This document shows, piece after piece, positions 5,171-29,119 of a DNA stretch of 32,270 bases. The stretch covers positions 806,001-838,270 of the forward strand of contig QPGO01000013.1 of the NCBI GenBank assembly GCA_008632985.1, given 5' to 3'. Both the position numbers and the translations under genes were made by a program. The notes below the pieces were generated by a model, which saw nothing but the letters and a program-made list of their open reading frames with translations, did not search any database and was not told the DNA's origin. Position 1 is the first letter of the stretch. Each line of letters begins with the position of its first letter. Source of the DNA: Psammoneis japonica. Its lineage: Eukaryota.

Positions 5171-5509
5171 ACCATGTCGTTACAGCGTTTTCTCTGCCGG
5201 ATGCACTTGACGACTATCGGTAAAGTACGAAGAAAACAAGGGAAGCTTGACCTTTTCAGCAATAGCATCGGCATTAGAAGAGCTCATCAATTGCCCTTGT
5301 ATGATATAGAACAATCTTTTTCATTATGTCGAATCGCCACTATGTTGTACTCAGTAATGGCTTGGCGTTTGCGGAAAGTAACAACAATCTACTACTAGTA
5401 ATATATTATGTACCAAACACATGATTCCCGCGTCTCTCGTCATTCAGAACTTTTTGCGAGTCTCACAAGAATCGCTCCGACGCCAAAAACAGAATACTAA
5501 TTCATGCCC

Positions 5510-6480
5510 TTATCCCTTGCCCTTGGAGGACGACGCGTAACGAGTGGAGTAGCCCTTGCCCTTGGAGGACGAGGCATAACGACTGGAGTAGCCCTTGCCC
5601 TTGGAGGACGAGGAGTAACTACTGGAGTAGCCCTTGCCCTTGGAGGACGAGGAGCAGCCCTTTTTTCCACCCTTGCTGGCACTTGGTGAACAAGCGGTCG
5701 GAGGAGGAGGAGGAGGTGGTGGAGGAGGAGGAGGTGGTGGTGGTGGAGGTGGTGGAGGAGGAGGCGGCGGAGGAGGAGGCGGTACCACGGGGCAAACGCT
5801 CTGCGGAGGATCACCCAAATCGGTCTAGAGACAAAAAAGAAGCGGCCAATGTGAGCCAAGCTCATGGAAACAACGGCATGCATGTCGCAACTTACAAACA
5901 CGGTCCAACCGGCCTGATCGCCCTCCTCCAAGAGGGGAAAGATTCCGCAGTCGTTCGTATAAGTTATTATATACGTGTTTACCGTAGACTGTTCATTGCT
6001 GTTCAATCCAGTAATCACAACTTGCAGTCCACGGGGCAAGGATTGCGAGTCAAGGTCCTGCGTCATGGTGGCGATGATGGATGTGTAGGTAAAGGTGTCA
6101 CCGTTCACATAGGGACCTGTTCGGACCGTTTGGGCCACCACCTGCAGATTTTGGTCCAATTCAAAAATCTGAACGTTTTGCACCGACAGGGGCACCAAAT
6201 CCTCCGCTGGCACTTCGTCTTCACCACGAATCTCTGTCAAGCAGGCCGTCTCATTGATACCAGGACCCGCCACAGTCGTGTCATCGCACACCAAGCTAAA
6301 ATCCAAGGTAAATTCGTACGTACCCGGTTGACAACCGCAAATGTCCGTCCCAACTTCCTGGGCACTGGCCTGCCAATCGCACAGCAATGTAGCAGTCACC
6401 ATCAACAGGGTTCGCACCATCCGACCCGTACCTCCATGACGGTGTCGCAACGATGGCGACCGATCCGATCCATCCGCCAT
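5510..6480 (-). CDS. Secreted protein: signal-like segment, Cys-containing domain, ~29-residue poly-Pro, C-terminal SSSKGKGY repeats. Exons 6480-5896 and 5824-5510
   Basis: MVRTLLMVTATLLCDWQASA is signal-peptide-like. A phase-0 intron at 5895-5825 (gtaag..ctctag) joins ORF 5497-6534 to ORF 5510-5818. The 36-nt coding repeats are visible at 5514-5660. Confidence 0.8.
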
Positions 6481-6849
6481 TGTTGTTGGAAAGTGTGTTG
6501 TTTTGTGACTGGCGATGGAAAAGTAGCCTAACAAGCAGAGGGAGCGATACCTACCGGTAGATTTTCGCGGGAATCAGGTGGTAATTCCATACTCATGCTC
6601 TGGGTATCATAAAAAATTTGAAGACCGAAATTTTGACGAGCATTCTCGGTTCCAGCGCAATTTTCTACCGTTGATTGTATGTTTGTTGTTTACACACACG
6701 GGACCGCAAGTTCACATCATAAGCATCCGAATATTTTTTCTAACATCAGTTTGAAACGCAACGGAAAACGTAAATCGGCTCACACGACTGAAAATTGAGG
6801 ACTGCAGGAGAATGCGGAATCCGCAAGGGGAATGAATGCGAACAATGAG

Positions 6850-6990
6850 TTGTTGTGACAGCTCCAGGTGTGGTGGAACCCCACTGCACTGACAAGGCCT
6901 CCAGACCCACTGCATTTCAACATGCAGTGCATGGCTCTGTCAGCATTGCAAGATGTGTCAAGGACACCTTTGTTGGGCTGTCACCTGCAT
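6850..6990. repeat. Dispersed direct repeat, copy 1 (copy 2 at ~9430-9585)
   Basis: acaaggcctccagaccca..gcatttcaa..gtgcatggctctgtcagcattgcaagatgtgtcaa.gacacc occurs at both sites. Confidence 0.85.
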
Positions 6991-9429
6991 GATCTCCTGT
7001 GTGAGCAACTGCTGTGACACACATTGTGGAGCCAGTGCAAAAAGAGAGAGACACTGGAGCCGCCCCTCTGGCTCATGCAGCACCTGCAAAGAGCACGACA
7101 GCAAGCTTGTGACATTCCACAAAACTCACAACCTTGGCTTGGTGTTGTTTTTGCCCCTGTGAAATTGTTTTGCATGTGGCTGCCAGCTCCTGTGCCGCCA
7201 ACTGCTTTCTTTGAGAAAGAGTGAAGGCTCAGAACAAACACACACAGCACCTTGCCAGCAAACAAAATTGACACATGAAAGCAGCCCAAATCAACACATG
7301 GGGTCTGTTCCAGCCATGCTGTTCTTGAATTCCAAGAAGCAGAGCAACAGGTGCAAAATTGCCTGGCAGCAGCTTTTCTTGTGCCCGCTTGTGTGCAGCA
7401 CTTGGGCACTGCACAAGCCACCGCCGCACCAGATTTGTCACCAAATGAGCCCAAAATGCAACAAAGTGAGTCAAGCAGCACAAAAACAGCTCAGGCAAAA
7501 GTCACTCCAAAATCATTGTTGAGCTCCAAGCCAAGAAGCTGTCATGTGCACAGTTGATCAAAAGTGAACCCAGCATGCCGCCCCATGAGCCACAAGGATG
7601 GGAGATGCAAGATTGATGCTCAGCTGCAAGGACACACAGCCAAACAAATCACATGCACAAAAATGGCACCTGCAGCCATCATGAACAAAGTCATTCACAG
7701 AGCACCAGAGCTGTGCATCATGTGCAGTCACTGTGCGAAGTTTTTTCCTGTGGGTGCATGTGCCAGTGGGGTGTTGAGAATCCAGCATTGCTGGTGTCTT
7801 GCTCTCTGCTGCAGTCCAAGCAAGTCAGACAAGGGCTGGCAACACTGCCCAAAACACCTGCCATTTTCACATGCCTCTGCAATGAAAGATGCTCAACCAC
7901 AGCTCAGCACACTGGCTGCCTTTTTTCTTGCCACAGAGCATGGCAAGATGTGAGAGTGGGTCATCATTGTTGCATGCAGCCCTGCCTCTCTCCGGGGTCT
8001 GGAGCAGCATGTGCTGGGGCACGCATTCCAGAAATTTGCTGCTGGCATGAGATCACATCTGAGGATGGATTTATGATCTGATGCATTTTTAAAACAGCTC
8101 TCTTTTTCTGTCATTTTCTCTTTTTGCACTTTCAAAGCATCGTTTCAGATGCCTGTAAATGCCCCGGGCACAGGTGAGAGATGCAAAGAAGGTGAAGCTG
8201 GCAGCTCTGTTGGAGTGGCTGGGAGCAAGACAGCTGATGCTCTCTCCTGCTGTGTGTTGCTGTTGGTTGTGCATTTGTCCCTTCCATTTCTTCTGCCCAC
8301 AGTGCTGGGAGGCAAGGAAGCCCAGAAGCAAAGAAGTGGTGGCACCCAGCTGCCACAGCATTGAGCCACAGCAACAAAAGACACACACTCTCTTGGCACC
8401 ACAAGAAAAAAAATGTCTTTGGCATGAGCACACAAGAGGTTTGTGCCCAGGGAAAGCCTGGGCAGCATTTTTGAACTTTGAGCTCAGTTTTCTGGTGTTT
8501 CCAGCCACACAACACTGCACTGCCTTGAAAGCTGCCAGACTTTTTTGTGTCATTGCAAAAAAGACATTTCCAATGAGTGTAAAGAGGAGGTTGATGCCCA
8601 CACAAAAATGCCACCATTGGCAAAGAGCACTTCCTGTTAGATCAATCAAAGTTGAAGCACACTCCTCAATTTCTTGGATCTCACATTTTGGGCAGTTGCC
8701 ACCCAGTCTTTGTGTTGGGACATGTTCAGCTGTTTTGTGACTCTTGTTTAATCTGAAAGTGCATTTGACTCAAAAGGGTGCTTTGCAACAGCAGCAGCAA
8801 TGGCAAATGTGGGCAAAAACCCTTCATCATTGAGTGAGAATTTTTTCTGCCTTCTTGTGGTGAAGTGAAGTGGCCAGTGTGAGTTTTGGGATGTTCTTCC
8901 TGCCATTGTTCCACTTTGTGCTGCACTCATGTTGCACAGGCTTCTTTGCTGTCACACTTGCTGCAAGAAATTTTGGCTTTTTGCAATGAGACAAAGTGGC
9001 AAATGCAAAACCCAGATGCTGCCAATGTTGTTGTCCCACTTTGCAATGTGGGGCTGTGCAACACTTGTCTTTGAGCTGGTTGTCATGGTGCACCCTCCAA
9101 ACTGAGTGGAGCCCCTGTGCCAAAATCTGCACAGATGACATGCAAAGTGTGCAGTCAGCACATTGTGGGAACACTCCAGCACACAACCAACACTTCTTTG
9201 TTGTTCAATGATGAATCCTGCTGAGCAGAAAAGGAGAAAGAACAGCAACAAGGGCACATGTCAAAAAACTGTTGTGAGAAACTGGGCTCTCCACAAGACA
9301 GAACAAATGCTGCAAAGTCCAGTGTTTCAACCAAAACATCATGGTTGAGCACAGCCTCGGAAAATGTGCTTGACATTAAAGTGGACTGGCTGGAGAATGC
9401 AAAATCCTTGCAAAGAAAATGCGAACATC

Positions 9430-9585
9430 GAGTTGTTCCAGCTTGGGGTGTGGTGGCTGGGACAACACCCTGGAGCCCACAAACAAGGCCTCCAGACCCA
9501 TGGCATTTCAAAATGCTGTGCATGGCTCTGTCAGCATTGCAAGATGTGTCAAAGACACCTTTTTTGGGCTGACACCTGTGCATGG
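9430..9585. repeat. Dispersed direct repeat, copy 2 (copy 1 at ~6850-6990)
   Basis: Same block as 6893-6990, with weaker similarity continuing downstream. Confidence 0.85.
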
Positions 9586-10486
9586 TCTGTGGTGTGCCAC
9601 TGGGCAACCACACTGCTCAACTTTTTGCAAGAAAAGTTTGTTGCATGTGGCAGCACCTTTGTGCAGCAGCACAAACTGCACATCCTTCTGGTGTCTCTTT
9701 GGCCAGAGCCAAGAGGCCAAGATGAAGACATGTTGCAGCCATGCTCGCTTGGCCCCAAGCACATGACACTCTGCCCAAATTGCAGCAAAAACTTGGCTCA
9801 GCAGCTTTGCACTGATTTTGCACTGTCGTGCTGTTTTCTTGGAGCCACACAAAATCAAGGTCTTTGAAGCAATGGCAGCAGCTTGGCCAGTGTCTTTGGG
9901 GGAGGCCCCTTTGGGGGGAGATCCCAGTGCCAACAGGTGGAGCTTTGGGCCCCGGCTAGCCTCATGCACAGTGCTCCATGGAATGCTCAACTTCTCATGC
10001 TTGTTGACAGTGTGGGTGACAATGCACAATGTGGTGCTTTTGAGTTGGTTTCTTGTGTTGCTGTCATGTAAAATTTTGTTGTCCAGAGGCAGCAGAGCTG
10101 GCAAAAAACTGCTGCGTGCACTTTGGCCACATGACAAGGTGCCACAATCCAGCAGGTGCAGTGTTGGCTGGAGTGGGCAGTTGTGGAATGGAAAGTCATT
10201 CTGCCTTTTTCTCTCTTGCTCATGTGGGTGACCACAGTTTGGCACCAGTTGGTTGGAGGCACAGTGCCAGCTCAGCAGAAATTGGCTGCAGCTTGAGTTT
10301 TTTTCTTTTTGTGATGATCATGTGCTCAACTTGCTCCCCAGCAATCTTCCTGCTGAAGCCAGCTGGAGTTGTCTTGCACTCATTGTTTGTCTCAACTGTG
10401 GGCCTCAACATGAGTCATGCAGTGAGACACATCCTGCTCTGAGATCCTGCAACCTTGACAAAGAAGTTGGGCTCAATTTTTTAGGC

Positions 10487-10511
10487 CACACACACACACA
10501 CACACACACAC
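10487..10511. repeat. (CA)n microsatellite
   Basis: Uninterrupted run of CA repeats. Confidence 0.95.
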
Positions 10512-12456
10512 CATTTCTCTTTTGACAGACTCAAATCAGCAATGAAATGTGGCTGTTCAGATCAGCCTCTTTTCAGCTCTCCTCTGGCAATGCACACAAC
10601 CTGCCACCCCTGGTGTGTTGCAGTCCACTCCAAAGTTGAGTCAAAAGGGGGGGGGGGGGACAGCGCTGCTCCTCCAACCACAGTCAGACTTGCTTTGCCT
10701 CTTGCTGAGCACTCTGACAGAAACAGAAGACAAAAAGCAAAGACCCAACTTTCCAAAAATTTGAAGCATGGCACCAAACAGCAAACAGAAGCCAAACAGG
10801 AGTTCTTTCTGGTGCAGGTGGTGAGAAAAGCAACCCTCCATAAATGTGCACCAGCATGGTGAGAGACCTCAAGACCCACATGTCAGAGAGTTGCGGTGCA
10901 GCACTGTTGATGCTGTGTGCTTGACAAAGCCCAACATTTGCTGGTGGCTGCAGTGCAAGACAACAAAAATGGGGGCCACACATGTTGGGCAGCAAGCACT
11001 GAAATGTGGAAATGTCCTGCAGTGCATCCCATTTTTTGGACATGTTTTCATGGTCTGGGTTTTCCTTCATTGTCAAAGGGGCAACCTTCCCAACAATGTC
11101 TTCTGCAAAAATGTCTGCCACAACTTGGCTCTCCTTGTTGCTGTGAGTGCTTTGAGCTCCACATGCATGCTGGCAGCAAGAAGCAAGAGGGAGCGCCAAC
11201 CTCTCCAGCTCAAGTGGACAACACACTGATCAAGCAACCCAGAAGTGACCTCTCCTTGCAGAAACAAACCCCCTCCCAAATGCTTTGTAAAATGAGCTCC
11301 CAGCAGTTGGTTTTTTCTGCAGATGGTGTGGCACACCACCAGTGCCAGCACAGATGTGCCAACAAGTGACCAGCATGCAAAACACTGCAAGCTGTGTGCC
11401 CTGCCATGATTGGCCAGGTTGCACATTGACAAAAGCACCACAAGGTGCAAGCAGTGACAGCAGTGCACCATGGGCCATTGTTGATCATGTGAATTTTTGT
11501 GACTCCAGCCAGAAAGATCCCTGCACTTGGCCCAGCAAGTGCACCATTCTTGCTGCAGCATGGGCGCATGCCATTTTTTGTTCCCCACAGTTCTTGAGAC
11601 AGGCATGTGCAGCCTGCACACCCAAGATGTGATGCAGGGGGCAACTGGCTTGCTGCATTGTTCAAATCCCCAAATGCCTTGGTTGCAGCTCCTTGCAAAT
11701 TAAAGGGCTCTCACAAAGACTGCACAGAGGAGGGCAGCAGAAGTCACATGCAAGTGCCAGTTGAAATCCATGCTGGGCAAACAGCACCAAAAAGTGCAAG
11801 ACATGATGTCTGGTGCTGCCATGCCAAATGCTCAAGCAGGCTGTGGCATGTCTCTCTCCACAGCTCCAGGTCAGAGCTGTGTGCAAGCTTGTTCTTGCTT
11901 AGCAGACAAGGGGTGGAGGGCCACACAGGTTGAGGAACACATGAGATTGAATTTGGAGAAAGAGGGCCAGCTGCACTGGTGTGGGGTGCCTTGGAAGGGC
12001 TCTGCTTTGGCCCTGACCTGCAGAAATGTAAGTGTGTTGATGAGAAGCAGCAACCCTGCAAATGAGAGCAGCTGCACAAAAAGCAAAACTTTGGTGCCTT
12101 GGGAGAGGAGCAAATGCTCCTCACAACATCCCACAAATTGGAGAAACACAGACAAGCAAAGACTTGCTGGAGATGGAAAGCCCTTTTCCCACCCACCCAC
12201 ATTGGCAGCAACCTCATGGCCACCGCCAATCCCACACAACAGAGGAGCTGCACTGCATGCACAGAACACACCATGCAGCCCCCCGCCAACAGTGGAGGAG
12301 TTCATCAACATGCACCCATGCATTGGACTCATGGCTCACAGACATTTTTTCCTGCTCCTTTTCTGCTCTTCACTCTTCATGGCTGTGCTGTCTGCCTCAG
12401 TTTGTGGAGAAGATTTGACATCAAAGTGCACATGTGTGCACAATCCTTTCAGGAGG

Positions 12457-13787
12457 ATGGTGTCCAAGGCCCCAGTGGCAGGAACTTGTGTGATTGGCAA
12501 GCTTTAAGAAATGAGAATGAAAATGGCACATGTTGTGTTCTTGTCATCACCACAAAACCATCCCATTTTCTGGCCATGCTTTTTGATCTGCAGGTCTGGG
12601 AGCAGCCCTCTGAAGCTGCTCTGATGCAATGCTCAATGGCTCACAAATCATGTTGACCAATTGACCACTGTTGTGCCCCTCAAGCTGTCCCCAACAATGT
12701 GATTGTGGACTTTGGATGCCCTTTCATTGTGATGACAAGCACAGTGATTGTCGGGCAGTGTGGAGATGCTTGAAACAGCTTGCTTGCCTTGTTGAAAGAC
12801 ATGCAACAAGATGAGCTGTGTTGGAGATTTTCCTGCCTGTTGCTCTCAAGCAAGAACACCATGGTCCCATGGTCAACAATTTTGTTGTCACAAAGGATGG
12901 AAAGAAGAGTCAAAGCACATTGCCGCTGTGCAGCAATGAGGATGCATGCCCTGACTTTCAGCACCTGATGGCAGAAATTTTGGGGCAGCAGAGCCAGGTT
13001 TTGAAACTGCTCATTCCTGCATTGGAGAGTCTGCATGAAGCAGGGCACTTGCATGCATGTTTCTTTCATCCTCCCATTGTTGATGCTCCTTGGATCTCAA
13101 AGGCACAACAAGGCCATTGTGGTGGGGATGCATTTGAAAACATCCAAGTTGGCTCTCATTTCCATCTTGTCCTTGCTCTTTAAAAAGAGCATGCTGAATG
13201 AAATTGAAATCCACCCATTGGCAGGATGCTGTCAACATGGGCTGTGACACTGTTGTGAATTGCGCTGGTCTTGGAGCATCAAATGTGTGCAATGATGGAG
13301 ACTTTGTTGGAGCTTGTGTGTTGTTCTGCTGCACTGTTGCCAAAGACAGGGTTGCTCACAAGGCAACAATGATGGTTTGCTTGTGGACACTGCAGCATTG
13401 ACCAAAGATGCACCATGCTGGGGAAGTGAGATGGAGCTGTGTTGTCTTGTCCCACGCAGTGACATGTTGCCAGTTGGCAGAAATTGCCAGCTGGAGCAAA
13501 ATGCCAGATGTTGAAAGTGAAATTTGGCCAGAAGAAAGGAGATTTCTTCTCCAGAATGCACGGTCACTCAGCATCAACATTGCTTGACAACACCCAGCAG
13601 GGTGGGAATGGATGGGCTTTTGACCTTGCTGGCTGGCAGTTCAATGTGAAGCAAACAACATTTGTGGCAAAGAAGAAAAGAAGCACAGGTGGCCCATGCT
13701 CATGATTGTGGCTTTAGAGAAGTGGGTGGGTGGGCTGCATTTGCTGGCATGGCAGCACACACTGCAGATCTGGTGGCCAATTTGCAA
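12457..13787 (+). pseudogene. Hypermutated D-amino acid oxidase pseudogene (paralog of 3835-5170)
   Basis: Aligns along the whole gene. It has frameshifts and a ~56-nt deletion (equivalent to 4581-4636) between CAG microhomologies. Both splice donors changed gta->gca, the stop changed TAA->CAA, and TpA and CpG are almost all converted. Confidence 0.93.
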
Positions 13788-13925
13788 ACCATGTCGTTGC
13801 AGCATGTTCTCTGCAACACATGTCACATTGCCAGGAACAAGATTCTTTGTCTTTCATTGCCATTCTCAACCAAATGCACTTTGTGATTGGCAACAAAGTG
13901 TGGAGAAAACAAAGCAAACTTTGTT

Positions 13926-14268
13926 TGGTGCAGATCTGAGGCAAGACCAACAAGAGATGGTGGTCTGTGCCTCCCCCTGCATGAGTGGGGGGTTGTCTTC
14001 CATGACATGCCCCCGCATCGGATGGCTGACGCAGAAGCAGTGCGCAAGCCCACAAGCACCATGCAAGCCACAGCAAGCTCACTCCTTTCTTTCATCAACA
14101 TTGCACTGCAACGTTGATGAGTTCAAAAGTGAGTTTTCACTTGCAGCCCATGCCACCCACCCTTTGCAGATCTCTGGCTGGAGCTTCAAATCCGGGTCAG
14201 GGGGGTGCCACAACCAACCAGAGAGCTTGTCCAAGAGCACTTCAGCCAAAAGAGGAAAGCAGAGTCGA
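13926..14268 (-). mobile_element. Insertion in the duplicated intergenic region: near-complete copy of an LTR-like repeat
   Basis: Absent from copy A (5240-5270). Its reverse complement matches 16369-16654 and then continues into 22697-22807. Confidence 0.75.
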
Positions 14269-14568
14269 GAGCAATGGAGGGCAATCAGCCCATCCATTTG
14301 CATTGACAGCAGAAGGCTCACCAATTGCTCAAGTGTGATGTGCAGAACAATCTTCTTGTTGAATTGCCACCATTTTGTGTTGGTTTGAGCATTTGCCAAT
14401 TGCAACAAGTCCAATGTGTCGCGACTTTGTGAGACAAGAAAAGTCTCGACTCAAAAGCATGTCCAGGAAAACAACAACAATCTGCTGCTGATGCTTCATG
14501 CAAGTGCATCATTCCCGCATCATGAATGTGTCCATGTCCTGCATCTCATCAAAAGAATTTTGTCCGCG

Positions 14569-15617
14569 TCATTCACAGATTTTTGCGAGTCTCACAAGAA
14601 TCGTTCCAACATCAAATGCAGCAATGCTGCTTTGTGCCCTCCCCCCCCTGCCCTTGGAGGATGAGGAGTGGTGGCCCTTCTTTCCACCCTTGCCCTTGGA
14701 GGACGAGGAGTGGTGGCCCTTCTTTCCACCCTTGCCCTTGGAGGACGAGGAGTGACAGCCCTTTTTTCCACCCTTGCCCTTGGAGGACGAGGAGCAGCCC
14801 TTTTTCCCACCCTTGCTGAGACTTGGTGAGCAAGAGGGTGGGTGAGTCGGAGCATCTGATGGGGTCATTGATGGGACCATGCTTGGAGCATCCGACGGGG
14901 TCATTGACGGCTCTGGGGTCATCGGCACCACGGGGCAAATGCTCTGTGGAGGATTGCCCAAATCAGTCTAAAGAGACAAAAAAGAAGCAACCAGTGTGAG
15001 CCAAGTTCATGGGGAACGACTGCATGCATGTCGCAACTTACAAACACGGTCCAACCAGCCTGATCGCCCGCCTCTAAGAGGGGAAAGATTCCGCAGTCAT
15101 TGCAACAAACGATCACATGAGTGTTTGTCACAGTCTCTTCATTGTCGTTCAATCCAGTCATCACAGCTTGCAGTCCACGGGGCAGGCTTGCCGAGTCAAG
15201 GTCCTGCGTCATGGTGGCGATTGTGGATGTGTGGGTGAAGGTGTCACCGTCAACACAGGGACCTGTTTGGACCGTTTGGGCCACCACCTGCAGATTTTGG
15301 TCCAATTCAAAAATCTGAACGTTTTTCACCGACATGGGCACCAAATCCTCCACTGGAACATTGTCTCGACCGTGAATCTCTGTCAAGCATGCCGTCTCAC
15401 TGACACCAGGACCCTCCATGGTTGTGTCATCGCACACCAAGCCAAAATTGAGGGTAAATTCGTACGTTCCCGGTTGACAAGCACAAATGTCTGTCCCAAC
15501 AGTCTGAGCACTAGCCTGCCAACCACACAGCAATGTGGCAGTCGCCATCAACAGGGTTCGCACCATCCGAGCCGTGCCTCCACGATGGTGTGGCGACCGA
15601 TCTGGGCCAACCGCCAT
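14569..15617 (-). CDS. Paralog of the 5510-6480 secreted protein, open but recoded (Tyr->His/Cys). Exons 15617-15042 and 14967-14569. May be a pseudogene
   Basis: Strong protein similarity (TDICACQPGTYEFTL, VQIFELDQNLQVVAQTV, NDCGIFPLLE). Intron 15041-14968 keeps gtaag and ttag, and both exons are open. The linker is PSMTPSDAP rather than poly-Pro. Tail repeats read KKGCH/HHSSSSKGKG. Confidence 0.65.
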
Positions 15618-16039
15618 TGCGCTTTGTTGCAAGTCGAAGAGCAATGCGTTGTGTTGTGTGCATTGAGAACTGTGATTTTTTGACGATGACAATGGACAAA
15701 GTGGTGCTGTGATGATCGCGGGAATGAATCACGGAACGTTCCATGCTGTGCCGCATGGCATGCCGGCATGCAATGTCCAGGCTCTTTGACACATCCTAAA
15801 TGGGCTGCATTGAACAACTTTAAAGTGAAGCAAAATGAAAGATGAACATCGCGGTTGCCGCGAAATTTGAAATTTTCATCCGTTGGATTTGTTCGCATGA
15901 CAGCACCACGCGGGGGGGGGGGAATGTCTCCGCACACACTGCCCAATCAATGGGTCGCTTGCTTTTTGTCGCTCTTGACTGACGCGTTCCAGGTCTAGGT
16001 GGGACCTCGCACCACTGAACTGTGACATCGACAGTTTTT

Positions 16040-16330
16040 TGAATCACGTCGCATGTCGCGCACGTAGATTTCTACGTGATTTTTTTGACATTTTGTGTCA
16101 TTTTACGGTGCACTCATTGAGCGATCCGTCCAACAACTTTTGACATTTTTTGTTACAGCGCGATTCTACAATGTCTTAAGAATCGCGTAGGGCAGGTGCA
16201 TTTGCAAAAACGTCTAGTGGCAAGAGGCACGATTGCACCACAAACTTGGCCGTTTATTTGATGTTGAAGATGAATGCATGCATCAATTAAATTCTCGTAC
16301 TGCGGAGCTCGCACGTGGAATTCTACGGGC
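16040..16330. promoter_or_regulatory. TpA/CpG-retaining island with palindromes
   Basis: CACGTAGA-tt-TCTACGTG at 16061-16078, CGCGATTCT-N11-AGAATCGCG at 16159-16187, and a degenerate second copy of the first motif at 16311-16329. Function unknown. Confidence 0.35.
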
Positions 16331-16334
16331 CCAA

Positions 16335-16654
16335 TGTCACACGGAGTCCCACCCAGGGCTGGAACGCGTCGACTCTGCTTTCCTCTGGTGGCCGATGCGC
16401 TCTTGGACTAGCTCTCTGGTTGTTTGTGGCATGGCCACCAGCCCCAGACCTCAAGCTGGAGCCAGCCAAGTCTGAGGCAACCCAGATTTGGAGCTCCAGC
16501 CAGAGAGCCGTGTGGCAAAGGGTGGGTGGTGAGGGCTGCAAGTGAAACTCACTCTCGAACTCAGCAACATTGCAGCATGACATTGATGGAAGAAAGGAGT
16601 GAGCATGCTGTGGCCCATGGGGAGCTCACAGGCTTGTGTGCTGCTTCTGTGTCA
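16335..16654 (+). mobile_element. Left part of a split LTR-like repeat (starts TGTCACA)
   Basis: Matches the reverse complement of ~14027-14268. Its terminus is the inverse of TGTGACA at 22801-22807. Confidence 0.65.
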
Positions 16655-19316
16655 AAAAGAAAGACAAAAATCTGCATTTTCAGTGCTGCCACTCCCTGGG
16701 TCGTGTGCTGGGTCTGGCAAAAGGGGAGGGCAACGAGATGGCCCAGTGGGTCTTGAAGGGAAATGGCAACGTTGTCCCCAGGCGGTCCGTTCGATGCTTG
16801 ATGACCGCCGAACTCAACAGCAACACTGAGAAGCGCAAGCGCAAGATTTTTGATCAGTGTGTTGAGTCACGTTGGGGTTCTGCCGCTTGCCCTGTGTCTC
16901 GTCCACGGGAAAGCAATGCATTCCACATGGAGATTCTGACGAGAAGGTTCCCCTGTATGACAAGTTGATCCACGCCAAGGTTGCCCTTCCTCAGGGTGAC
17001 AAGCCATGCAATGCCAAGGTCATTGGTTGCTCTGCAGATCCTGAAGGTCGCACCGTGGGCTCTTACAATGACAATCCCATCATGAACACACTTTTGTACG
17101 AAGTCGAGTTTCCTGACGGGGAGGTGAAGGAGCATGCGGCCAACGTCATCGCCAAGAATCTGCTCTCTCAGGTTGACTCCGAAGGCCACACACTCAACGT
17201 TTTTGACAGTGTCCTCGATTTCGCCAAGGATGACACCGCATTGACCAAGGACAACATGCATGCCAAGGTTGGCAAGCGGTCTCGTCTGCGCAAGACAACG
17301 TGTGGCTGGAAGTTTCTTGTGTCATGGAAAGACGGATCTGAGTCGTGGGTTTCCTTGAAGGACATGAAGGAATCCCACCCAGTGGAAATGGCCGAATTTG
17401 CCAAAGCAAGAGGCATGGATCATGAACCGGCTTTCCGATGGTGGATGCCGCACACACTCCGGAAGCGTGATTGCATCGCATCAGCGGTTGAGGCTCGTGT
17501 GCGACGTGTCACTCACAAGTGTGGAGTCAAGCCACCCAACACTGTCAAGGAGGCACTCGAGCTCGACCGACAGAACAGTGACAACCTGTGGGCAATGGCA
17601 ATCGAGAAGGCGATGCGTGACGCGGGTGTTGCCTTTGAAATGCTCGATGACGACACTCCAACTCCTGTCAGATGGTCCAAGCAATTGGGTCACCTTGTGT
17701 TCGATGTCAAGATGACCATGGCTGGGAAGGCTTGGTGGGTCCTAGATGGACACAAGACTTCCAACCCAGAAGGATCGACGCATGCAGGTGTGGCATCACG
17801 AGAAAGTGTGCGAATCGCTCCAACTTGTGCTGCTTTGAATGACATTGATGTCATGGCAGCGGATGTTCAGAATGCATGTCTGCAGGCACCGTCGTCGCAG
17901 AAGCATTGCATCACATGTGGCACCAAGTTTGGCATCGAGAACGTGGGCAAGTGTGGCCTCATCCGTCGTGCATTGTGTGGAGGCAAGTCTGCAGGACGAG
18001 ACTTCCGGAATCATCTACGAGCCTGCATGTTGCATGTCAGATTCAAGCCTTGTAGAGCGGACCCTGATGTTTGGATGCGTGAAGCACTCAAGGCGGATGG
18101 TGCTGAGTGTTGGGAGTGCGTCCTGTTGCACACGGACGATGTGCTGTGTGTCTCCAACAATGCTGAAAAGATTCTGTGGGAGGAAATCGGCAAGTGCTTT
18201 CCACTGAAGGAGTCCTCAATCGGTCCTCCTGGCCTGCATCTGGGAGGTCACCTTCGCAAAGTGGAGCTTGAGAGTGGAGCTGAGGCATGGGCCTTCAGCT
18301 CTTCGCAATGCACTCAAGCATCCGTGAAGAACATAGAGATCTGCCTGTTGGAGAAGGGAATGAAGCTGCTGTCCAAGGCTTCCACCCCTCTCAGCAGCTC
18401 GCATCATCCCGAGGTTGACACGACGCCCGAGTTGCAACCAGCAGAGGCAGCTCACTGTCAATCGCTCATTGGTGTCTTGCGTTGGATGGTGGAGCTTGGT
18501 CACGTTGACATTTGTCTGGAAGTGTCCATGATGTCCTCTCACCTTGCTCTGCCCCGAGAGGGACACCTTTCCCAGGTCTGCCATGTCTTCGCCCACCTCA
18601 AGAAGCATCACAGTGCGGAAATGGTGTTTGATCCCACCCATCCGGACATTGATGAAGAGTTGTTTGCATGTCGCGATTGGACCACCTCTGAGTTCGGTTT
18701 AGCCACAAAGGAGGAGATGCCTGCTGATGTGCCCCACGCTGGGGGATCAGGTGTGGTCACACGAGCCTTTGTCGACGTGGATCATGCGGGTGACTCCATC
18801 ACTCGTCGGCCCCACACTGGATTCTTGATCTGTCTGAATTCGGCACCCGTCTGTTGGATGTCGAAGAAGCAGACGAGTGTCAAGACGAGCTTGTTTGGGT
18901 CAGAATTTGCTGGCATGAAGCAGTGTGTGGAGCGCATTCGCGGACTCCGCTACAAGCTTCAAATGATGGGGATCCCGGTCATCGGACCGGCTCATGTTCA
19001 TGGAGACAACCAGTCTGTCCTGGCGAACACCTCCATCCCCAATTCGACATTGAAGAAGAAATGTCACAGTTTGGCACGCCACTTTGTTCGTGAGGGTGCG
19101 GCCCGGGACGAGTGGCGAACGGCATGCGTCAATGCGCACCTCAATCCCAGCGATCTGATGACTGAGGCACTGCCTTCAGGGGAGAAGCGCAGTCGGTTCG
19201 TTAGAATGACATTGCACTGTCTTGGAGGGAAGGTGGATTGGGCCATGTCGGTTGAACCACCTGCCAGTGCGGAGGGTTTTGCTGGAGTTCCCTGCCTGTG
19301 GAGTGGTTTTGTTTGA
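16655..19316 (+). mobile_element. Ty1/copia (diatom CoDi-type) pol 3' part: integrase C-terminal region, RT, RNase H. Catalytically decayed
   Basis: Motifs LGRVLGLAKGEGNEMAQW, TTCGWKFLVSWKDGSESWVSLKDMKES, GHLVFDVKM, DVQNACLQA, RALCGGKSAG, ADPDVW, LLHTDD, FVDVDHAGD, SLFGSEF, HGDNQSV and ARHFVRE are present. ORF 16872-19316 is 814 aa, with a frameshift near 16880-16960. Confidence 0.95.
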
Positions 19317-19417
19317 ATTTTCCACTTGATGGATGTTTGCATGCAGTTTGCCATCGCATGATGTTGATGAATCCCTTTGTTGGCAATCTGGCTTGACGAC
19401 ATGACCAAGTCTAGATT

Positions 19418-19561
19418 GAGGGGAGTGTTTTGGTCTGCCCATTGTTGGATCAGCGGGATTGCCTCTACGTTGAAAAGCCACTGCTCTGCAGTGCCAAGAG
19501 GGTGTGACGTGTTTGTGAGTTCGGTTCCTGGAAAGTGAGACTTTGTGCGATGTCTGCGACA
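19418..19561 (+). mobile_element. Putative polypurine tract (gaggggag, 19418-19425) followed by a short LTR candidate TGT...ACA (19426-~19561)
   Basis: A purine tract directly followed by TGTT lies just after RNase H. The right boundary is a guess because there is no second copy in the window. Confidence 0.5.
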
Positions 19562-19659
19562 TTTCCAGGACACCAGCACAAGATCGAGAGGTCCACTTGA
19601 GGATCCTCTCACAATTCGAATAGATCGCACTTTGATTGTTGATTCATTCTGTCGACACA

Positions 19660-21711
19660 GTTTTGGCAAGAAGCTTGGGCCCGGATCGCAAAAGAAGAAA
19701 AAGGAAGGAGGCAAGAACCCAGCGGAGGGTCGCAGTCAGAAGAACATGAAGAAGATGATCTCAGAAGCAGTGGCCTCTGAGCTGGCTTCTCGGGACAAAC
19801 AGGAGCAGCAACCCAATGCATCTGACGCCGATGATGCCCAAGCTGGTGCCCACCTGTCATCGTTGGTGCAGGCAGCATCTGCGTCGGCTCCTGCTGCGTC
19901 ACAGCCTCTGCCGCCACCACCTCCTCTGGCGCCTTCTGCTCCGCCTGCCCAAGCTTCTTTCTGTTCAATTTGAGGCTCTGGCTGTCACGCTTCAATCCAT
20001 TCTGCAACGCGCCGGCGCCAAGAAATGAAATGAAGGGACGGCGCTGTGTTCCCCATGTCTCCTCGCTTGAGGGGAGAAAGTGCTCCTTTTGTGCCATGGA
20101 ATCACAGTCGTCGATTCCCAATCATTCTGTTTTGAAATTTGTTGATCGCTGCATGGTCTCTGACATCACAATGGACACAAGCGACGAGACTGCGAACGGG
20201 AACGAGATGCGCACTGAGTTGGATTCGTGTGCCAATGTGGTTGTTGTTGGCAGAGGATCCTGCGTCTTGAACGACACCGGTCGCACCGCCCAAGTCAGCC
20301 CGTTCAACCCAGAATGTGAGTCGATGAAAGATGTGAGGATCGTTGATGCGCTCCTTGCATGCGACTGTCCGCATTCGATGAAGACATGCTTGTTGGTCCT
20401 TCACAACGCCTTGCACATCCCGGCGATGGACCACAACCTTCTGCCACCCTTTGTGCCATGAGAAGCAGGGGTGACGGTCAATGACGTCCCCAAGATTCAG
20501 ATCAAGGGATGAGAGCCGACAGAGGATGACCATGCCTTGGTGTTCTTGGATGTGAAGACACGGACTCCTTTGTCATTGTGGGGAGCATTCTCCTGCTTCC
20601 CAACCCGTTGTCCGACACTCCAGGAAATGAGAGACACCGACGATGCACTGGTGCTCACTCCAACTGGACACACCTGGAACCCTCACTCAGGTTCCTGTGC
20701 GCGCAATGAAGAGAGCATGTTGGACTGGGAGGGGAACATGTCAGACAAGCGAGACCGGGTGAAAATCCTGGCAGAGGATCTTCCGGATGAAGACGAGGAG
20801 CTCCGACTCTCCTCAACCATGACAAGTGTCGAGACGTGCATGATTGATCACAACATGACGTTGATTGACCACTTCGAAGCATGGGATGACTTGAGTGGAA
20901 CTCGTGGAACTGTTCGTGAAGTTGACAGTTCTCATGCTGTCTCATGTGATGTCTCTGTCACTCTTGATCCTGTTGCACTTGCAGAGAGCCTTCAAGATCG
21001 TCGCGATGTTGGAGTTTTTGCTGCTTCAGTTGGGTCTGCGCCAGTGGGACACGAAGATGACTCGGGTCAAGATGACAATGTAGACTTTGACATTTTCAAG
21101 GATGTCCAACTTGAAGACATTGTTGACGACCTTGTGGAGCACTTCGAGTCAGACCCTGAGGTCAATGTTGGTGGGACCACGGCATCAAAGTCCAAGGGTG
21201 CATCCCCAGAGCATCTGTCTAAGATCTGGCGGATGAGCACCAAGGATGCAGAGCGGACGATTGACAACACCACCCAACCACTGCATTGCTCCGAGGACCC
21301 TGCTCTCTCATGCAACTGCTCCACGAATGACAGAATGCTCTGACATCGGCGCATCTCTCAGCACTTCTTTATGGACACCTTCTTTGCGAGTGAGAAGGCT
21401 GGAAAGTCCACAAGGGGGTGCTCGTGCATGCAATTGTTTGTTGCGGACAAAGGCTTTGTCCATGTTGTCCCAATGCATGCTCGATCAGAAGTCCCTCAGG
21501 CTCTCAAAATGTTCATGAAGGAAGTGGGTGCACTGGAAGCGATTGCATGTGATGGCAACTCAGCGCAGAAGTCCGACAAGGTTCGGCAATTCCTTCACTC
21601 TGTTGGCACCAGTCCACGTCTGTTGGAGGAAGGAACGCCATGGTCGAACCGCGCTGAGTTGTGCGTTGGCCTGCTCAAGGAGGCCGTTTGCAAGGATGTG
21701 AAGGCGTCCTC
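19660..21711 (+). mobile_element. Ty1/copia (CoDi-type) 5' part: gag C-terminus, aspartic protease, integrase N-terminus and core. Decayed
   Basis: Lys-rich gag tail ending TLQSILQRAGAKK*. Protease RTELDSCANVVVVG..NALHIPAMDHNLLPPF. Integrase PEHLSKIW..AERTI..TTQ, FMDTFFA, CMQLFVADKGF and EEGTPWSNRAELCVGLLKEAV. In-frame TGA stops at ~20459 and 21341. Confidence 0.9.
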
Positions 21712-22696
21712 TCGCCACTTGCTCCAAGCCAGCCCACACTCCCAGTGCACCCACAGGTGCGGCAGAAGTTCTCGTCAACTGGCCCAAATTGGCGTCGCCA
21801 TGCTGTGATGCCCATCTGGTTAAAATGAGGCTGCACAGGAAAGAGAGTGTTGCTTTCTTTTTGAGTGGATGCAGAGAACCCACACTTCGACAGCAAACAA
21901 CAATGACACCATTCAGAAAAGGATGCAAACGCAGCACCAAATGAGGGGAACAACCTTGCTTCCAAGGATGAATCTTGTCTTCAACAAAAATTGACTTGAT
22001 TTTGCACTTGCAGGCTCTGGGACAAAAGTGAAAAATTCACCACTCAGAGCAGCAAGTTTGGCATGCCGGAAAACAAAAGAAGGGAAGTTCAGGACTTGCA
22101 GGCACGAAACAGAGAGCCTTGATGACATGACAAGAAGGGTGTTGGAAGAAATGACATTCTCACATGAAATTGACACTGGATCTGGAATGGAAATGTCTGA
22201 CCATGCAGCAGATGGATGGTCATCAGAGGCAGCGCGGATGGTGTGTCCAAACAATGAACACTCGTGAGTGCCACAACAGGGACAGTGCTTTCACCACATG
22301 GGGTGAAGAACTTGATTGGGCAGCTGGGAAAGAAAAATTGGTTGAGGGCTGGTGGGTGTGTGGATGGAAGCAGTTTGCACAGATGACACCGCTGTTGTTG
22401 GTGGATGTTTCTGAAGCATGCAGAATTTCTGTGAGATCCTGTGCAGAAAATGCATTGGGTCTGCAAAAAAAATGCCAAAAGGAACAACAAGCATGCAAGC
22501 CATGAGGCTTTGACTCCAGTCATTTTCCACTGAAAAATGTTGTGTGTCGTGCTGAGATGAGGGCATGCCATTGGCAGAAGTGGCCAAAATTGTCCTGAAG
22601 GACTTGACAAATTACCGTCTGAGAAGGGTGACATCAGTGCAAGAGCGCACGCAGAAACACATGCAGGGTTTCTTGGTGGGTGGCTGCCACAAAAAG

Positions 22697-22807
22697 TGCT
22701 TCTGTGCCAGTCATCTGATGCAGAAGCAGGCCATGAAGGACACACACCCCACTTGTGCAGGGAGGGGGCACAGACCACCATCTCTCACTGGCCTTGGATC
22801 TGTGACA
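22697..22807 (+). mobile_element. Right part of the split LTR-like repeat (ends TGTGACA)
   Basis: ggcacagaccaccatctc..gatctg matches the reverse complement of 13930-13975. Confidence 0.65.
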
Positions 22808-22872
22808 AAGGCACGTCAAACAACAATGCAATGGCCCCACACTGCACTGCACTGTGTGACATGGATGAAAAT

Positions 22873-22989
22873 NNNNNNNNNNNNNNNNNNNNNNNNNNNN
22901 NNNNNNNNNNNNNNNNNNNNNNNNNNNNNNNNNNNNNNNNNNNNNNNNNNNNNNNNNNNNNNNNNNNNNNNNNNNNNNNNNNNNNNNNN
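22873..22989. other. Assembly gap (117 N)
   Basis: Run of N, followed by a (CA)n tract at 22990-23014. Confidence 1.
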
Positions 22990-23014
22990 ACACACACACA
23001 CACACACACACACA
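22990..23014. repeat. (CA)n microsatellite abutting the gap
   Basis: Run of AC repeats. Confidence 0.95.
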
Positions 23015-29090: not shown

Positions 29091-29119
29091 CCATCTTCCA
29101 TGTAAAATGGTCTGTGGTG

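What the first reader, a model, noticed from the sequence alone, without database searches (positions are those of the whole stretch)
12457..14490. TpA-specific A:T->G:C hypermutation of a duplicated gene: a RIP-like process running opposite to fungal RIP
Seen: cctacattagagagtctgtatgaagcagggtaca (4369-4402) becomes cctgcattggagagtctgcatgaagcagggcact (13016-13049), so 4 of 4 TpA are converted (two to TG, two to CA). In 4830-4887 versus 13423-13480, 3 of 3 TpA and 7 of 8 CpG are converted. Non-coding acaacaatctactacta (5381) becomes acaacaatctgctgctg (14474). Splice donors change gta->gca and the stop TAA->CAA. Known: CpG->TpG/CpA is ordinary 5mC decay, and fungal RIP creates TpA rather than removing it. 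Inference: a strand-symmetric A->G process at TpA acts on silenced or repeated DNA as a genome-defence or heterochromatin-linked mutator. Candidate mechanisms are a DNA adenine deaminase with TA/YA preference, deamination of modified adenine, or Pol eta-type error-prone resynthesis (A->G at WA). I know of no named system for this, but I cannot search the literature.
Basis: partly seen in the sequence, partly recalled or inferred. Interest (0 to 1): 0.93.

Follow-up and report, generated by a model that had tools for sequence, protein, structure and literature searches.

The report
TpA-erasing hypermutation of silent algal DNA
In a 24-kb stretch of an alga's genome, which includes a dead copy of a normal gene and a dead jumping gene, almost every TA step has been rewritten to TG or CA; this is the end state of a DNA-editing process reported only once before, in 2026, in an unrelated alga.

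Summary
A segmental duplication (A 1252-6451, B 9888-15597) has one intact, spliced D-amino-acid-oxidase gene (A) and one pseudogene (B). Of 50 TpA in A, 44 read TG (22) or CA (22) in B and 1 is kept. Of 82 CpG, 68 are converted. A>G per adenine is 0.45 after T and 0.08-0.09 after A, C or G. Forty outgroup proteins show that A holds the ancestral state. B is only part of a 24.3-kb domain (6772-31093), and there is a second 2-kb block (1751-3750). Together they hold 69 TpA where about 1,170 are expected (O/E 0.04), and their edges are sharp and lie beside active genes. A copia element inside the domain has lost 18 of 22 conserved tyrosines, 16 of them to Cys or His. TpA loss runs ahead of CpG loss. 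Copy A's genes are spared, so the process is not repeat-triggered like RIP. It follows a domain. A 2026 preprint caught the same TpA-only A:T>G:C hypermutation happening in Bigelowiella natans. This window shows its saturated end state in a second lineage, whose closest named relatives are diatoms. The enzyme is unknown. A DNA adenine deaminase is the leading guess.

The parts
6772..31093 (.). Main TpA-free domain (24.3 kb). It is also CpG-poor, except over about 14.5-22 kb.
   Evidence: 17 TpA lie in 6524-6771 and the next TpA is at 8072. There are 22 TpA per 250 nt from 31094 on. TpA O/E is 0.00-0.24 in every 1-kb bin from 7001 to 31000. One search gives the pooled O/E of 0.043.
1751..3750 (.). 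Second, 2-kb TpA-free and CpG-poor block, lying between two expressed genes inside copy A.
   Evidence: only 7 TpA lie between 1900 and 3800. TpA O/E is 0.06-0.11; 64 TG<->CA mismatches against 175 matches with its paralogue 10380-12313, so the two were converted independently after the duplication.
1252..6451 (+). Copy A of the segmental duplication. Its genic part is unmutated.
   Evidence: self-BLAST gives 65-79% nucleotide identity but 82-92% identity in purine/pyrimidine space.
9888..15597 (+). Copy B of the duplication.
3835..5170 (+). Intact D-amino-acid-oxidase-family gene (copy A). Exons are 3835-3874, 3971-4455 and 4544-5170, giving 383 aa.
   Evidence: open CDS with GT..AG introns; contigs of run X2 join across both introns. 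Pfam PF01266, E 2e-15; the introns and 3' flank keep 2, 6 and 23 TpA.
12389..13814 (+). DAO pseudogene (copy B).
   Evidence: 4 in-frame stops and a 57-nt deletion when projected onto A. At the 117 codons that differ, 40 outgroup proteins side with A at 100, with B at 11 and tie at 6. Conserved Tyr has become His or Cys.
5497..6534 (-). Repeat-rich minus-strand gene beside DAO in copy A. It is TpA-normal and spliced.
   Evidence: One search lists the ORF. One search shows an X2 joint at 5824/5896 with CT..AC ends, which is a minus-strand intron.
14567..15619 (-). Copy-B paralogue of that gene. TpA is mostly gone and CpG is only partly gone.
   Evidence: of its TpA, 3 are kept, 11 read TG and 8 read CA. 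Of its CpG, 29 are kept, 12 read TG and 10 read CA. A>G after T is 0.38, while C>T before G is 0.18.
16696..19316 (+). Copia-type retroelement, 3' part of the polyprotein (about residues 470-1365). The ORF is still open for 814 aa.
   Evidence: of 22 conserved-Tyr columns, 4 are kept, 10 are Cys, 6 are His and 2 are Arg. Trp is kept at 14/14, Gly at 39/41 and Arg at 23/33.
20243..21790 (+). Copia-type retroelement, 5' part of the polyprotein (about residues 1-450). It is TpA-free.
   Evidence: tblastn with five full-length relatives, E 1e-88 to 1e-120.
15981..16370 (.). MITE-like insert with 25-nt terminal inverted repeats. It is the only TpA- and CpG-normal island inside the domain.
   Evidence: inverted repeat I1; 13 TpA lie in 15996-16409; the summed contig depth here is 100 to 1000 times that of the neighbouring bins.

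Best explanation
This is the long-term footprint of a DNA-level hypermutation process. It converts TpA to TpG or CpA, that is A:T>G:C at the A or the T of a TpA, with both strands hit equally. It acts only inside particular chromosomal domains.

Shown here:
- The changes are specific to TpA.
- They are transitions.
- They are derived, not ancestral.
- They are equally frequent on the two strands.
- They are independent from site to site.
- They stop sharply next to active genes.
- They affect a retroelement, a duplicated pair of host genes and unannotated DNA alike.
- They run faster than, and independently of, the CpG>TpG/CpA decay that affects much of the same domain.

Inferred:
- The process is the same kind as the TpA-only hypermutation measured in mutation-accumulation lines of Bigelowiella natans. 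Here it has run to near-saturation in a second lineage, whose closest named relatives are diatoms.
- It is aimed by chromatin state (silent, TE-bearing DNA) and not by sequence repetition.
- Chemically it is most likely enzymatic deamination of adenine in 5'-TpA-3' to inosine, which is read as G. The candidate is a TadA/ADAT2-like deaminase, whose natural tRNA target is also an A preceded by U.

I give about 0.9 to the process being real and domain-restricted, and about 0.5 to adenine deamination as the chemistry.
For: Specificity: A>G per adenine is 0.45 after T against 0.08-0.09 after A, C or G. In a second segment it is 0.38 against 0.08-0.10. Of the 49 TpA changed in the gene segment, 44 became TG or CA.

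Polarity: outgroup proteins favour copy A at 100 of 117 differing codons. Conserved Tyr became Cys or His in the copia ORF, with 4 of 22 kept.

Strand symmetry: 22 TG against 22 CA in the gene segment, and 2857 TG against 2788 CA in the domain.

Domain restriction: sharp edges at 1751, about 3750, 6771 and 31094. The introns and 3' flank of gene A keep their TpA.

Conversion after the duplication: TG<->CA mismatches are 64 against 175 matches where both copies are TpA-free. They are 13 against 166 where only B is TpA-free.

Speed relative to CpG decay:
- Bins 15-22 kb have CpG O/E 0.57-0.80 with TpA O/E 0.00-0.24.
- Protein P0174 keeps Tyr at 7/28, Arg at 42/43 and other conserved columns at 457/491.
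- Locus L002 has TpA O/E 0.14 with 195/203 other conserved columns kept.

Not an assembly quirk: contigs of run X1 match 6943-9547, 13066-14095 and 17342-19022 with 0 differences, and they bridge the edges at 1751, 3750 and 6771.

Same signature in unrelated public records: P0174, P0396, P0425 and L002.

Precedent: in B. natans, 230 of 231 de novo mutations in two integrated viral regions are A>G or T>C, all at TpA, at about 6e-7 per site per generation. The authors propose an ADAT2-like enzyme (bioRxiv 10.64898/2026.01.13.699255; I read the abstract, Results and Discussion).
Against: - No mutation was seen happening here. Everything is inferred from divergence.
- No whole genome is held. I could therefore not show genome-wide bimodality of TpA content, nor look for a deaminase gene.
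- A runs test finds no strand-coordinated clusters in the main segment: 24 runs against 23.0 expected, P = 0.68. There is thus no footprint of a processive single-strand enzyme.
- No 3'-neighbour preference appears at the strand level: 24 against 22. TadA-derived enzymes are recalled to prefer TAC, so such a preference might have been expected.
- A TpA-normal MITE-like insert sits unconverted inside the domain.
- Remaining TpA are skewed to YTAR contexts, 33 of 69 against 37 of 266 in normal DNA. This is unexplained, and L002 does not reproduce it.
- The targets include host-derived DNA, whereas the B. natans report stresses foreign DNA.
- X1 probably comes from the sample that was assembled, and its platform is not on record.
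Confidence: 0.6

Rival explanations
1. The footprint is the same, but the chemistry is on the thymine. A TET/JBP-type dioxygenase marks T in TpA within silenced DNA as 5-hydroxymethyluracil. Its further oxidation product, 5-formyluracil, or the modified base itself, mispairs with G. T>C transitions then accumulate as a by-product of an epigenetic mark, not as a dedicated mutator.
For: TpA is its own reverse complement, so T>C at TpA cannot be told apart from A>G at TpA in any of my counts.

In dinoflagellates a TET/JBP enzyme makes 5hmU, which is enriched at repeats and silences transposons. Earlier work cited there found that 5hmU preferentially replaces T in TA and TC (PMC11572971, passages read).

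5-formyluracil in DNA gives mainly A:T>G:C transitions through fU:G mispairs (PMC7051996, passages read).

Site-by-site independence fits a decay process, as with 5mC.
Against: No evidence that this organism has 5hmU or a thymine hydroxylase. The dinoflagellate preference includes TpC, but T>C at TpC (that is, A>G at GpA) is not elevated here: 0.09. The B. natans data show bursts in only 11 of 15 lines, which looks more like a switched enzyme than steady decay.
Confidence: 0.2
2. One reading: a RIP-like, homology-triggered defence that detects duplicated DNA and mutates the repeats.
For: The interval is one copy of a duplication. A retroelement is also hit. The B. natans authors themselves draw the comparison with RIP.
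Against: Copy A keeps its TpA over 3751-6451 although it was duplicated with B. The TpA-free state covers about 15 kb beyond the duplication, including stretches for which X1 gives single long contigs with 0 differences. In B. natans the hypermutated NCLDV region is reported to be single-copy. The MITE-like insert, where the summed depth of X1 contigs is highest, is unconverted.
Confidence: 0.05
3. RNA-level A-to-I editing of retroelement transcripts, fixed in the genome by reverse transcription.
For: P0174 shows a strand bias, Tyr>Cys 17 against Tyr>His 4. That is what coding-strand-only editing would give.
Against: It cannot explain the pseudogene with its introns, the intergenic DNA, or the 22:22 and 2857:2788 strand symmetry. 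ApA is not elevated, unlike the recalled ADAR neighbour preference.
Confidence: 0.03
4. Sequencing or assembly artefact, for example modified bases systematically miscalled in heterochromatin.
For: X1, X2 and X3 come from one sample, which is probably the assembled one, and the platform is not on record.
Against: - Exact-word contigs at word depth about 30-70 reproduce the sequence.
- Strand-specific miscalls at a palindromic site should also give TA>CG and mixed calls, but 0 of 50 TpA read CG.
- Copy B also carries indels, 79 transversions, a 57-nt deletion and stops.
- Unrelated public records show the same Tyr>Cys/His pattern.
- The B. natans mutations were called from Illumina data.
Confidence: 0.02
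5. A repair or replication bias without a dedicated enzyme. An example would be a T:G-mismatch glycosylase tethered to methylated chromatin that fixes replication errors towards G:C, by analogy with very-short-patch repair depleting CTAG in E. coli (recalled, not checked).
For: The TpA-free state coincides with CpG-decay domains. Sites are independent of one another.
Against: CpG is lost, not protected, in most of the domain. TpA loss also occurs where CpG is intact. No known glycosylase has a TpA context.
Confidence: 0.08

Closest known systems
TpA-restricted hypermutation of integrated viral DNA in Bigelowiella natans (Mettrop et al., bioRxiv 10.64898/2026.01.13.699255, 2026)
   Same: Only TpA is hit. 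Only A>G and T>C occur, giving TpG or CpA according to strand. The process is confined to discrete regions. TpA-poor, CpA+TpG-rich clusters and CDS enriched in reverse-transcriptase and DDE domains are its long-term trace. The low-TpA CDS there have a TpA frequency of 0.0018; here it is 69/25,893 = 0.0027.
   Different: The lineage differs: the closest named relatives of the window's DAO are diatoms at 47-56% identity, and there is no near-identical hit. Here the process is seen only as an end state, not measured. Depletion is far deeper than in the active B. natans NCLDV region (Rho 0.45 there, 0.04 here). A duplicated host gene pair is hit as well as a retroelement. No viral genes were recognised. 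CpG decay runs alongside, whereas the preprint's main text never mentions CpG. I could not see its supplements.
Repeat-induced point mutation (RIP) of fungi
   Same: Dinucleotide-specific transition hypermutation that kills transposons and duplicated genes and leaves a skewed dinucleotide composition.
   Different: The direction is opposite: RIP makes TpA from CpA, and this removes TpA. It is not triggered by duplication, since copy A is spared. There is no strand-coordinated clustering.
5-methylcytosine deamination at CpG
   Same: A self-complementary YpR dinucleotide decays to TpG/CpA with 50:50 strand outcome and site-by-site independence, inside silenced domains. It is present in the same domain (38 TG and 30 CA from 82 CpG).
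   Different: It cannot produce A:T>G:C. TpA loss occurs with CpG intact (P0174 keeps Arg at 42/43) and is more complete than CpG loss in 14.5-22 kb.
TadA/ADAT2-ADAT3 tRNA adenosine deaminases and their DNA activity (as cited in the preprint; primary papers not read)
   Same: The natural target is an A preceded by U. Family members are reported to act on DNA. This is the leading candidate chemistry.
   Different: No such gene could be looked for here. No 3'-neighbour preference is seen.
5-hydroxymethyluracil made by TET/JBP enzymes in dinoflagellates (PMC11572971)
   Same: A TE-directed DNA base modification in an alga, with a reported preference for T in TpA. It silences transposons.
   Different: It is an epigenetic mark, not shown to be mutagenic. 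Its preference includes TpC, which is not affected here.
ADAR hyperediting and APOBEC3 hypermutation of retroelements
   Same: Deaminase-driven transition hypermutation used against selfish elements.
   Different: Both act on RNA or single-stranded replication intermediates and give one-strand bias. The neighbour rules differ. Here genomic DNA that never passed through RNA is affected symmetrically.

Membership tests
B. natans-type TpA hypermutation | Mutations fall on TpA only | tested here: met
   A>G per adenine is 0.45 after T against 0.08-0.09 after A, C or G. In a second segment it is 0.38 against 0.08-0.10.
B. natans-type TpA hypermutation | Almost exclusively A>G / T>C, giving TpG or CpA | tested here: met
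   Of 49 changed TpA, 44 are TG or CA. Pooled, 77 of 93 changed sites are TG or CA.
B. natans-type TpA hypermutation | Confined to discrete regions that contrast with the rest of the genome | tested here: met
   TpA O/E is 0.043 against 0.663, with edges sharper than 250 nt. This was tested within one 32-kb window only.
B. natans-type TpA hypermutation | Targets are foreign DNA (integrated viruses, transposons) | tested here: inconclusive
   A copia element is hit, but so is a duplicated host gene pair. Most of the domain has no recognisable origin: 0 further Pfam families among the 74 ORFs scanned, of 160 ORFs of 90 aa or more.
B. natans-type TpA hypermutation | Very high de novo rate, episodic between lines | not testable with these tools
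   This needs mutation-accumulation or population data. The only indirect estimate is that TpA loss is roughly 40-fold or more faster per base than ordinary transitions, if the domain is at equilibrium (from the counts).
Fungal RIP | C>T at CpA, creating TpA | tested here: not met
   TpA is destroyed, not created.
Fungal RIP | Both copies of a duplication are mutated over the duplicated length | tested here: not met
   Copy A is TpA-normal over 3751-6451.
Pol eta-type WA hypermutation | A>G at both ApA and TpA | tested here: not met
   ApA gives 18/193 = 0.09, which is the background level.
ADAR-type hyperediting | Acts through dsRNA; 5' neighbour U or A preferred (recalled) | tested here: not met
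   Introns, intergenic DNA and both strands are affected. ApA is not elevated.
5mC decay at CpG | C>T at CpG only | tested here: met
   This is met for the CpG component: C>T before G is 68/159 = 0.43 against 0.03-0.08 before other bases. It does not account for the TpA component.

The most novel reading that the evidence does not exclude
A dedicated DNA-editing genome defence that erases TpA from silenced DNA is widespread among SAR algae, in the diatom lineage as well as in chlorarachniophytes. It is aimed by chromatin state, not by foreignness or repetition, so it can also destroy host genes that fall into a silent domain. It works independently of cytosine methylation. It is carried out by a natural enzyme that deaminates adenine in double-stranded chromosomal DNA at TpA. 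Such an enzyme would be a natural adenine base editor.
Probability: 0.3. Interest if true: 0.9.

Novelty: new member of a known kind. Interest (0 to 1): 0.74.

Why it matters
Until 2026 no process was known that removes TpA from DNA. One preprint has now caught it happening in a single chlorarachniophyte. This window adds four things.

1. The same signature exists in a second, distant algal lineage. It also appears in at least four unrelated public records of copia elements, so the process is probably widespread.
2. It shows what the end state looks like: TpA O/E of 0.04 over 24 kb, with borders at gene edges.
3. Host genes that land in such a domain are destroyed too. The process does not depend on CpG decay and runs ahead of it. 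These facts argue for targeting by chromatin state.
4. There is a practical warning. TpA-free DNA has almost no TAA or TAG stops, 1.9 against 18.7 per kb per strand. Dead sequence therefore keeps long open reading frames, such as the 814-aa ORF here, and will be over-called as genes.

If the enzyme is a DNA adenine deaminase, it would also be of interest for base editing.

Tried and rejected
- Whole genome: none is held. There is therefore no genome-wide scan and no search for deaminase, TET/JBP or DNMT genes.
- Earlier findings of this scan: nothing for this genome or this sequence. The word search returned only phage cases with CA/TG or TpA skews. These do not bear on this report.
- RNA evidence: no listed holder is on record as RNA. 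X2 behaves as RNA because it has spliced joints, and it has depth in 8 of 30 bins. It has no contigs over 6671-20000.
- LTR dating: no LTR pair was found by self-BLAST in nucleotide or purine/pyrimidine space, so no absolute rate could be derived.
- Rfam: 0 matches over the window.
- Pfam: I scanned 74 of the 160 stop-to-stop ORFs of 90 aa or more, taking the longer ones. The result was nothing except two sub-threshold coiled-coil hits. No viral genes were recognised.
- Flank preference: the skew of remaining TpA towards YTAR was not confirmed as a rate effect. At mixed sites TAY beat TAR only 24 to 22, and 11 of 12 YTAR sites in A are converted. L002's remaining TpA are not YTAR-enriched.
- Strand clustering: absent in the main segment. 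There are weak hints in two small segments (P = 0.09, 0.09, and 0.005 for 20 pooled sites). I do not rely on these.
- Protein atlas: it returned only generic bacterial DAO clusters and was of no use for taxonomy.
- Cluster look-up: no names for P0174, P0122 or P0001.
- Literature: ten full-text searches. Only the B. natans preprint describes TpA>TpG/CpA hypermutation, and no listed paper describes it in diatoms. One search listed only 25 of 116 papers, most of them about terephthalate, so the other 91 were not seen. bioRxiv supplements are closed, so the preprint's supplementary tables were not seen.
Full report
**What is there**

The window is eukaryotic. Its introns are short and GT..AG. It carries a gene of the D-amino-acid-oxidase (DAO) family whose closest named relatives are diatoms: Ditylum, Cylindrotheca, Attheya, Thalassiosira, Cyclostephanos and Pseudo-nitzschia, at 47-56% identity. 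One Symbiodinium protein scores 51%. No near-identical protein is on record. The organism is therefore probably a diatom or another ochrophyte. It is not Bigelowiella natans as far as these hits show.

Self-comparison shows a segmental duplication, A 1252-6451 and B 9888-15597. Nucleotide identity is 65-79%, but identity in purine/pyrimidine space is 82-92%, so most differences are transitions.

Copy A holds an intact three-exon DAO gene of 383 aa (3835-3874, 3971-4455, 4544-5170). Contigs of public run X2 join its exons across both introns. Copy B holds its pseudogene.

**Check of the observation**

In the alignment of 3774-5197 with 12389-13814 there are 1363 columns at 79.5% identity.
- The 50 TpA of A became 22 TG, 22 CA, 1 TA and 5 other.
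- The 82 CpG became 38 TG, 30 CA, 3 CG and 11 other.
- AT and GC dinucleotides are kept at 71% and 74%.

Folded over both strands, A>G per adenine is 44/98 after T. It is 18/193, 16/202 and 17/181 after A, C and G. C>T is 68/159 before G and 0.03-0.08 before other bases. One hit destroys a TpA, so 0.5 per adenine is saturation. The true rate ratio is therefore much larger than the observed five-fold.

**Polarity**

I aligned the A protein with 40 relatives of 300 aa or more, taken from the 120 hits. I projected B onto it codon by codon. At the 117 codons that differ, the relatives side with A at 100, with B at 11 and with neither at 6. Tyrosines conserved in the relatives are His or Cys in B. 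B has 4 stops and a 57-nt deletion. The TpA-rich state is therefore ancestral and B is derived.

**The effect is a domain, not a gene**

TpA positions divide the window as follows.
- Normal blocks: 1-1750, 3751-6771 and 31094 to the end.
- TpA-free blocks: 1751-3750 and 6772-31093.

The TpA-free blocks hold 69 TpA in 25,893 nt, O/E 0.043. The normal blocks hold 268 in 5,948 nt, O/E 0.663, so about 1,170 would be expected at normal density. In the TpA-free blocks TG and CA stand at O/E 1.78 and 1.74.

The edges are sharp. There are 17 TpA in 6524-6771 and the next lies at 8072. From 31094 on there are 22 per 250 nt.

The normal blocks are the ones that hold the genes seen spliced in X2. Within them, introns and the 3' flank keep their TpA (2, 6 and 23). 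Protein-coding selection therefore does not explain the retention.

CpG is also low in most of the TpA-free DNA, with O/E of 0.03-0.16 in many 1-kb bins. Over 15-22 kb, however, it is 0.57-0.80 while TpA is 0.00-0.24.

**A second, independent polarisation**

The ORF at 16872-19316 is the 3' part of a copia-type polyprotein. Its 5' part lies at 20243-21790.

I compared it with the 60 best of its 120 relatives. Of 22 columns in which at least 80% of relatives have Tyr, the window keeps 4 and has 10 Cys, 6 His and 2 Arg. In the same comparison:
- Trp is kept at 14/14.
- Gly is kept at 39/41.
- Asp is kept at 28/30.
- Arg is kept at 23/33.

Tyr makes up 0.5% of the ORF against 4.0% in relatives.

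**Timing and independence**

Where both copies are TpA-free (1751-3700 against 10380-12313), TG<->CA mismatches number 64 against 175 matches. Where only B is converted they number 13 against 166. The two copies were therefore converted separately, after the duplication. The alignment of that segment is poor (61% identity), so the count is approximate.

The order of TG and CA outcomes along the gene is random, for TpA and for CpG alike: 24 runs against 23.0 expected, and 37 against 34.6. At sites where one strand reads TAY and the other TAR, the strands win 24 to 22. The events thus look independent from site to site, blind to strand, and insensitive to the next base.

**Relation to CpG decay**

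TpA loss is the faster process and does not need CpG loss.
- In the paralogue pair 5438-6451 / 14567-15597, 3 TpA are kept and 19 converted, while 29 CpG are kept and 22 converted.
- Protein P0174 keeps 7 of 28 conserved Tyr (17 Cys, 4 His) but 42 of 43 Arg and 457 of 491 other conserved columns.
- Metagenome locus L002 has TpA O/E 0.14 with 195 of 203 other conserved columns kept.

If the domain is near equilibrium, 0.27% TpA against 21.8% TG+CA implies that a TpA is lost about 80 times faster than one is made by the reverse transitions. That is about 40-fold per base. This is an inference from counts, not a measurement.

**Is it real DNA?**

Contigs of run X1 match three stretches with 0 differences:
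- 6943-9547, at word depth 34.
- 13066-14095, at word depth 31.
- 17342-19022, at word depth 28.

One 5.2-kb contig spans 1-4460 across both edges of the small block, and another spans the 6771 edge. X1 probably comes from the assembled sample and its platform is not on record, so it is not independent.

Independent support comes from four directions.
- No TpA reads CG, 0 of 50. Strand-specific miscalling at a palindrome would produce such calls.
- B carries indels and transversions.
- The same Tyr>Cys/His erasure occurs in unrelated public proteins. P0174 is 1 of the 120 hits. P0396 and P0425 are 2 of the 150 representatives. They keep 0 of 16 and 0 of 15 conserved Tyr, mostly changed to His or Cys.
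- L002 is the 1 TpA-poor locus among the 31 found in metagenome contigs. The other 30 have TpA O/E of 0.49-0.79.

**What it is like**

Ten literature searches found one matching description. This is bioRxiv 10.64898/2026.01.13.699255 (14 Apr 2026). I read the abstract, all of Results and the Discussion.

In mutation-accumulation lines of Bigelowiella natans, two integrated viral regions mutate at about 6e-7 per site per generation, about 1000 times the genome's rate. Of 231 mutations, 230 are A>G or T>C, and all of those lie at TpA. The hypermutation appeared in 11 of 15 lines. The genome also holds 124 TpA-poor, CpA+TpG-rich clusters and a low-TpA class of CDS enriched in reverse transcriptase and DDE domains. 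The authors propose an ADAT2-like DNA adenine deaminase.

The window shows the same signature taken to completion in another lineage. It adds four points.
- A duplicated pair of host genes is hit.
- The borders sit at gene edges.
- The process runs ahead of CpG decay. The preprint's main text does not mention CpG.
- Duplication as such is not the trigger.

**Mechanism**

What is shown is a domain-restricted, TpA-specific, strand-blind A:T>G:C process on DNA. The chemistry is not shown.

Adenine deamination to inosine fits the 5'-T rule of TadA/ADAT enzymes and is my first choice, at about 0.5.

The same counts fit T>C through a thymine modification. Dinoflagellates make 5hmU on repeats with a reported TA/TC preference (PMC11572971, passages read). 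5-formyluracil causes A:T>G:C (PMC7051996, passages read). Against this, GpA, which is the complement of TpC, is not elevated here.

Pol eta (WA) and ADAR-like editing fail on the ApA test. RIP fails on direction and on copy A.

**Unexplained**

- The remaining TpA are skewed to YTAR, 33 of 69 against 37 of 266 in normal DNA, and RTAY is nearly absent, 4 of 69 against 83 of 266. Yet no rate difference appears at unsaturated or competing sites.
- A 390-nt MITE-like insert with 25-nt terminal inverted repeats (15981-16370) is TpA- and CpG-normal inside the domain. It is either very young or exempt.

**Verdict**

I file it as a new member of a kind first reported in 2026. Its interest is high because it extends that report to a second lineage and shows the end state and the targeting logic.

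Noticed in passing
15981-16370: A MITE-like element with 25-nt terminal inverted repeats. It is TpA- and CpG-normal and lies inside the TpA-free domain. The summed depth of X1 contigs here is 1e4 to 1e5 against 30-70 nearby, though the tool warns this is no copy number. The short contigs of the tiny run X3 lie only at 15981-16316.
   Followed up: partly
1751-3750 and 6772-31093: TpA-free DNA has almost no TAA or TAG, 1.06 + 0.83 per kb per strand against 10.1 + 8.6 in normal DNA. TGA is nearly the only stop. This leaves 160 stop-to-stop ORFs of 90 aa or more in the window, and an 814-aa ORF remains open in a dead retroelement. Gene predictors will over-call such regions.
   Followed up: partly
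16696-19238 and 20243-21790: The copia polyprotein is permuted. Residues of about 470-1365 come first and residues 1-450 follow about 1 kb later on the same strand. Both breaks fall near residue 450-470. This could be a tandem pair sharing an LTR, or a rearrangement. No LTR pair was found.
   Followed up: partly
protein P0174 (not in the window): This Tyr-erased copia polyprotein shows a strand bias, 17 Tyr>Cys against 4 Tyr>His. The window is symmetric, at 22:22 in the DAO gene segment and 10:6 in its copia ORF. The bias might reflect transcription-linked or RNA-level editing in that element. Its DNA could not be fetched.
   Followed up: no
5511-5652 and 14642-14794: Tandem 39-42-nt repeats lie inside a minus-strand, repeat-rich gene with no Pfam family (5497-6534). 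X2 shows it spliced, with a CT..AC joint at 5824/5896. Its copy-B paralogue is partly decayed.
   Followed up: no
1120, 3244, 12030: At three TpA of the window, two of them among the few left in TpA-free DNA, an X1 contig reads the TG or CA form instead. This is 3 of the 23 listed differences that I checked. It is possibly allelic variation at the last TpA sites, but the numbers are small and some of the contigs may be paralogous.
   Followed up: partly
14027-14268 versus 16369-16654: Inverted repeat arms of 110 nt at 75% and 63 nt at 89% complementarity. One pair of arms lies in the tail of copy B and the other just downstream of the MITE-like insert. Their origin is unknown.
   Followed up: no
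22001-23500: The lowest-GC part of the domain (0.43). It holds an assembly gap of 117 N at 22873-22989.
   Followed up: no
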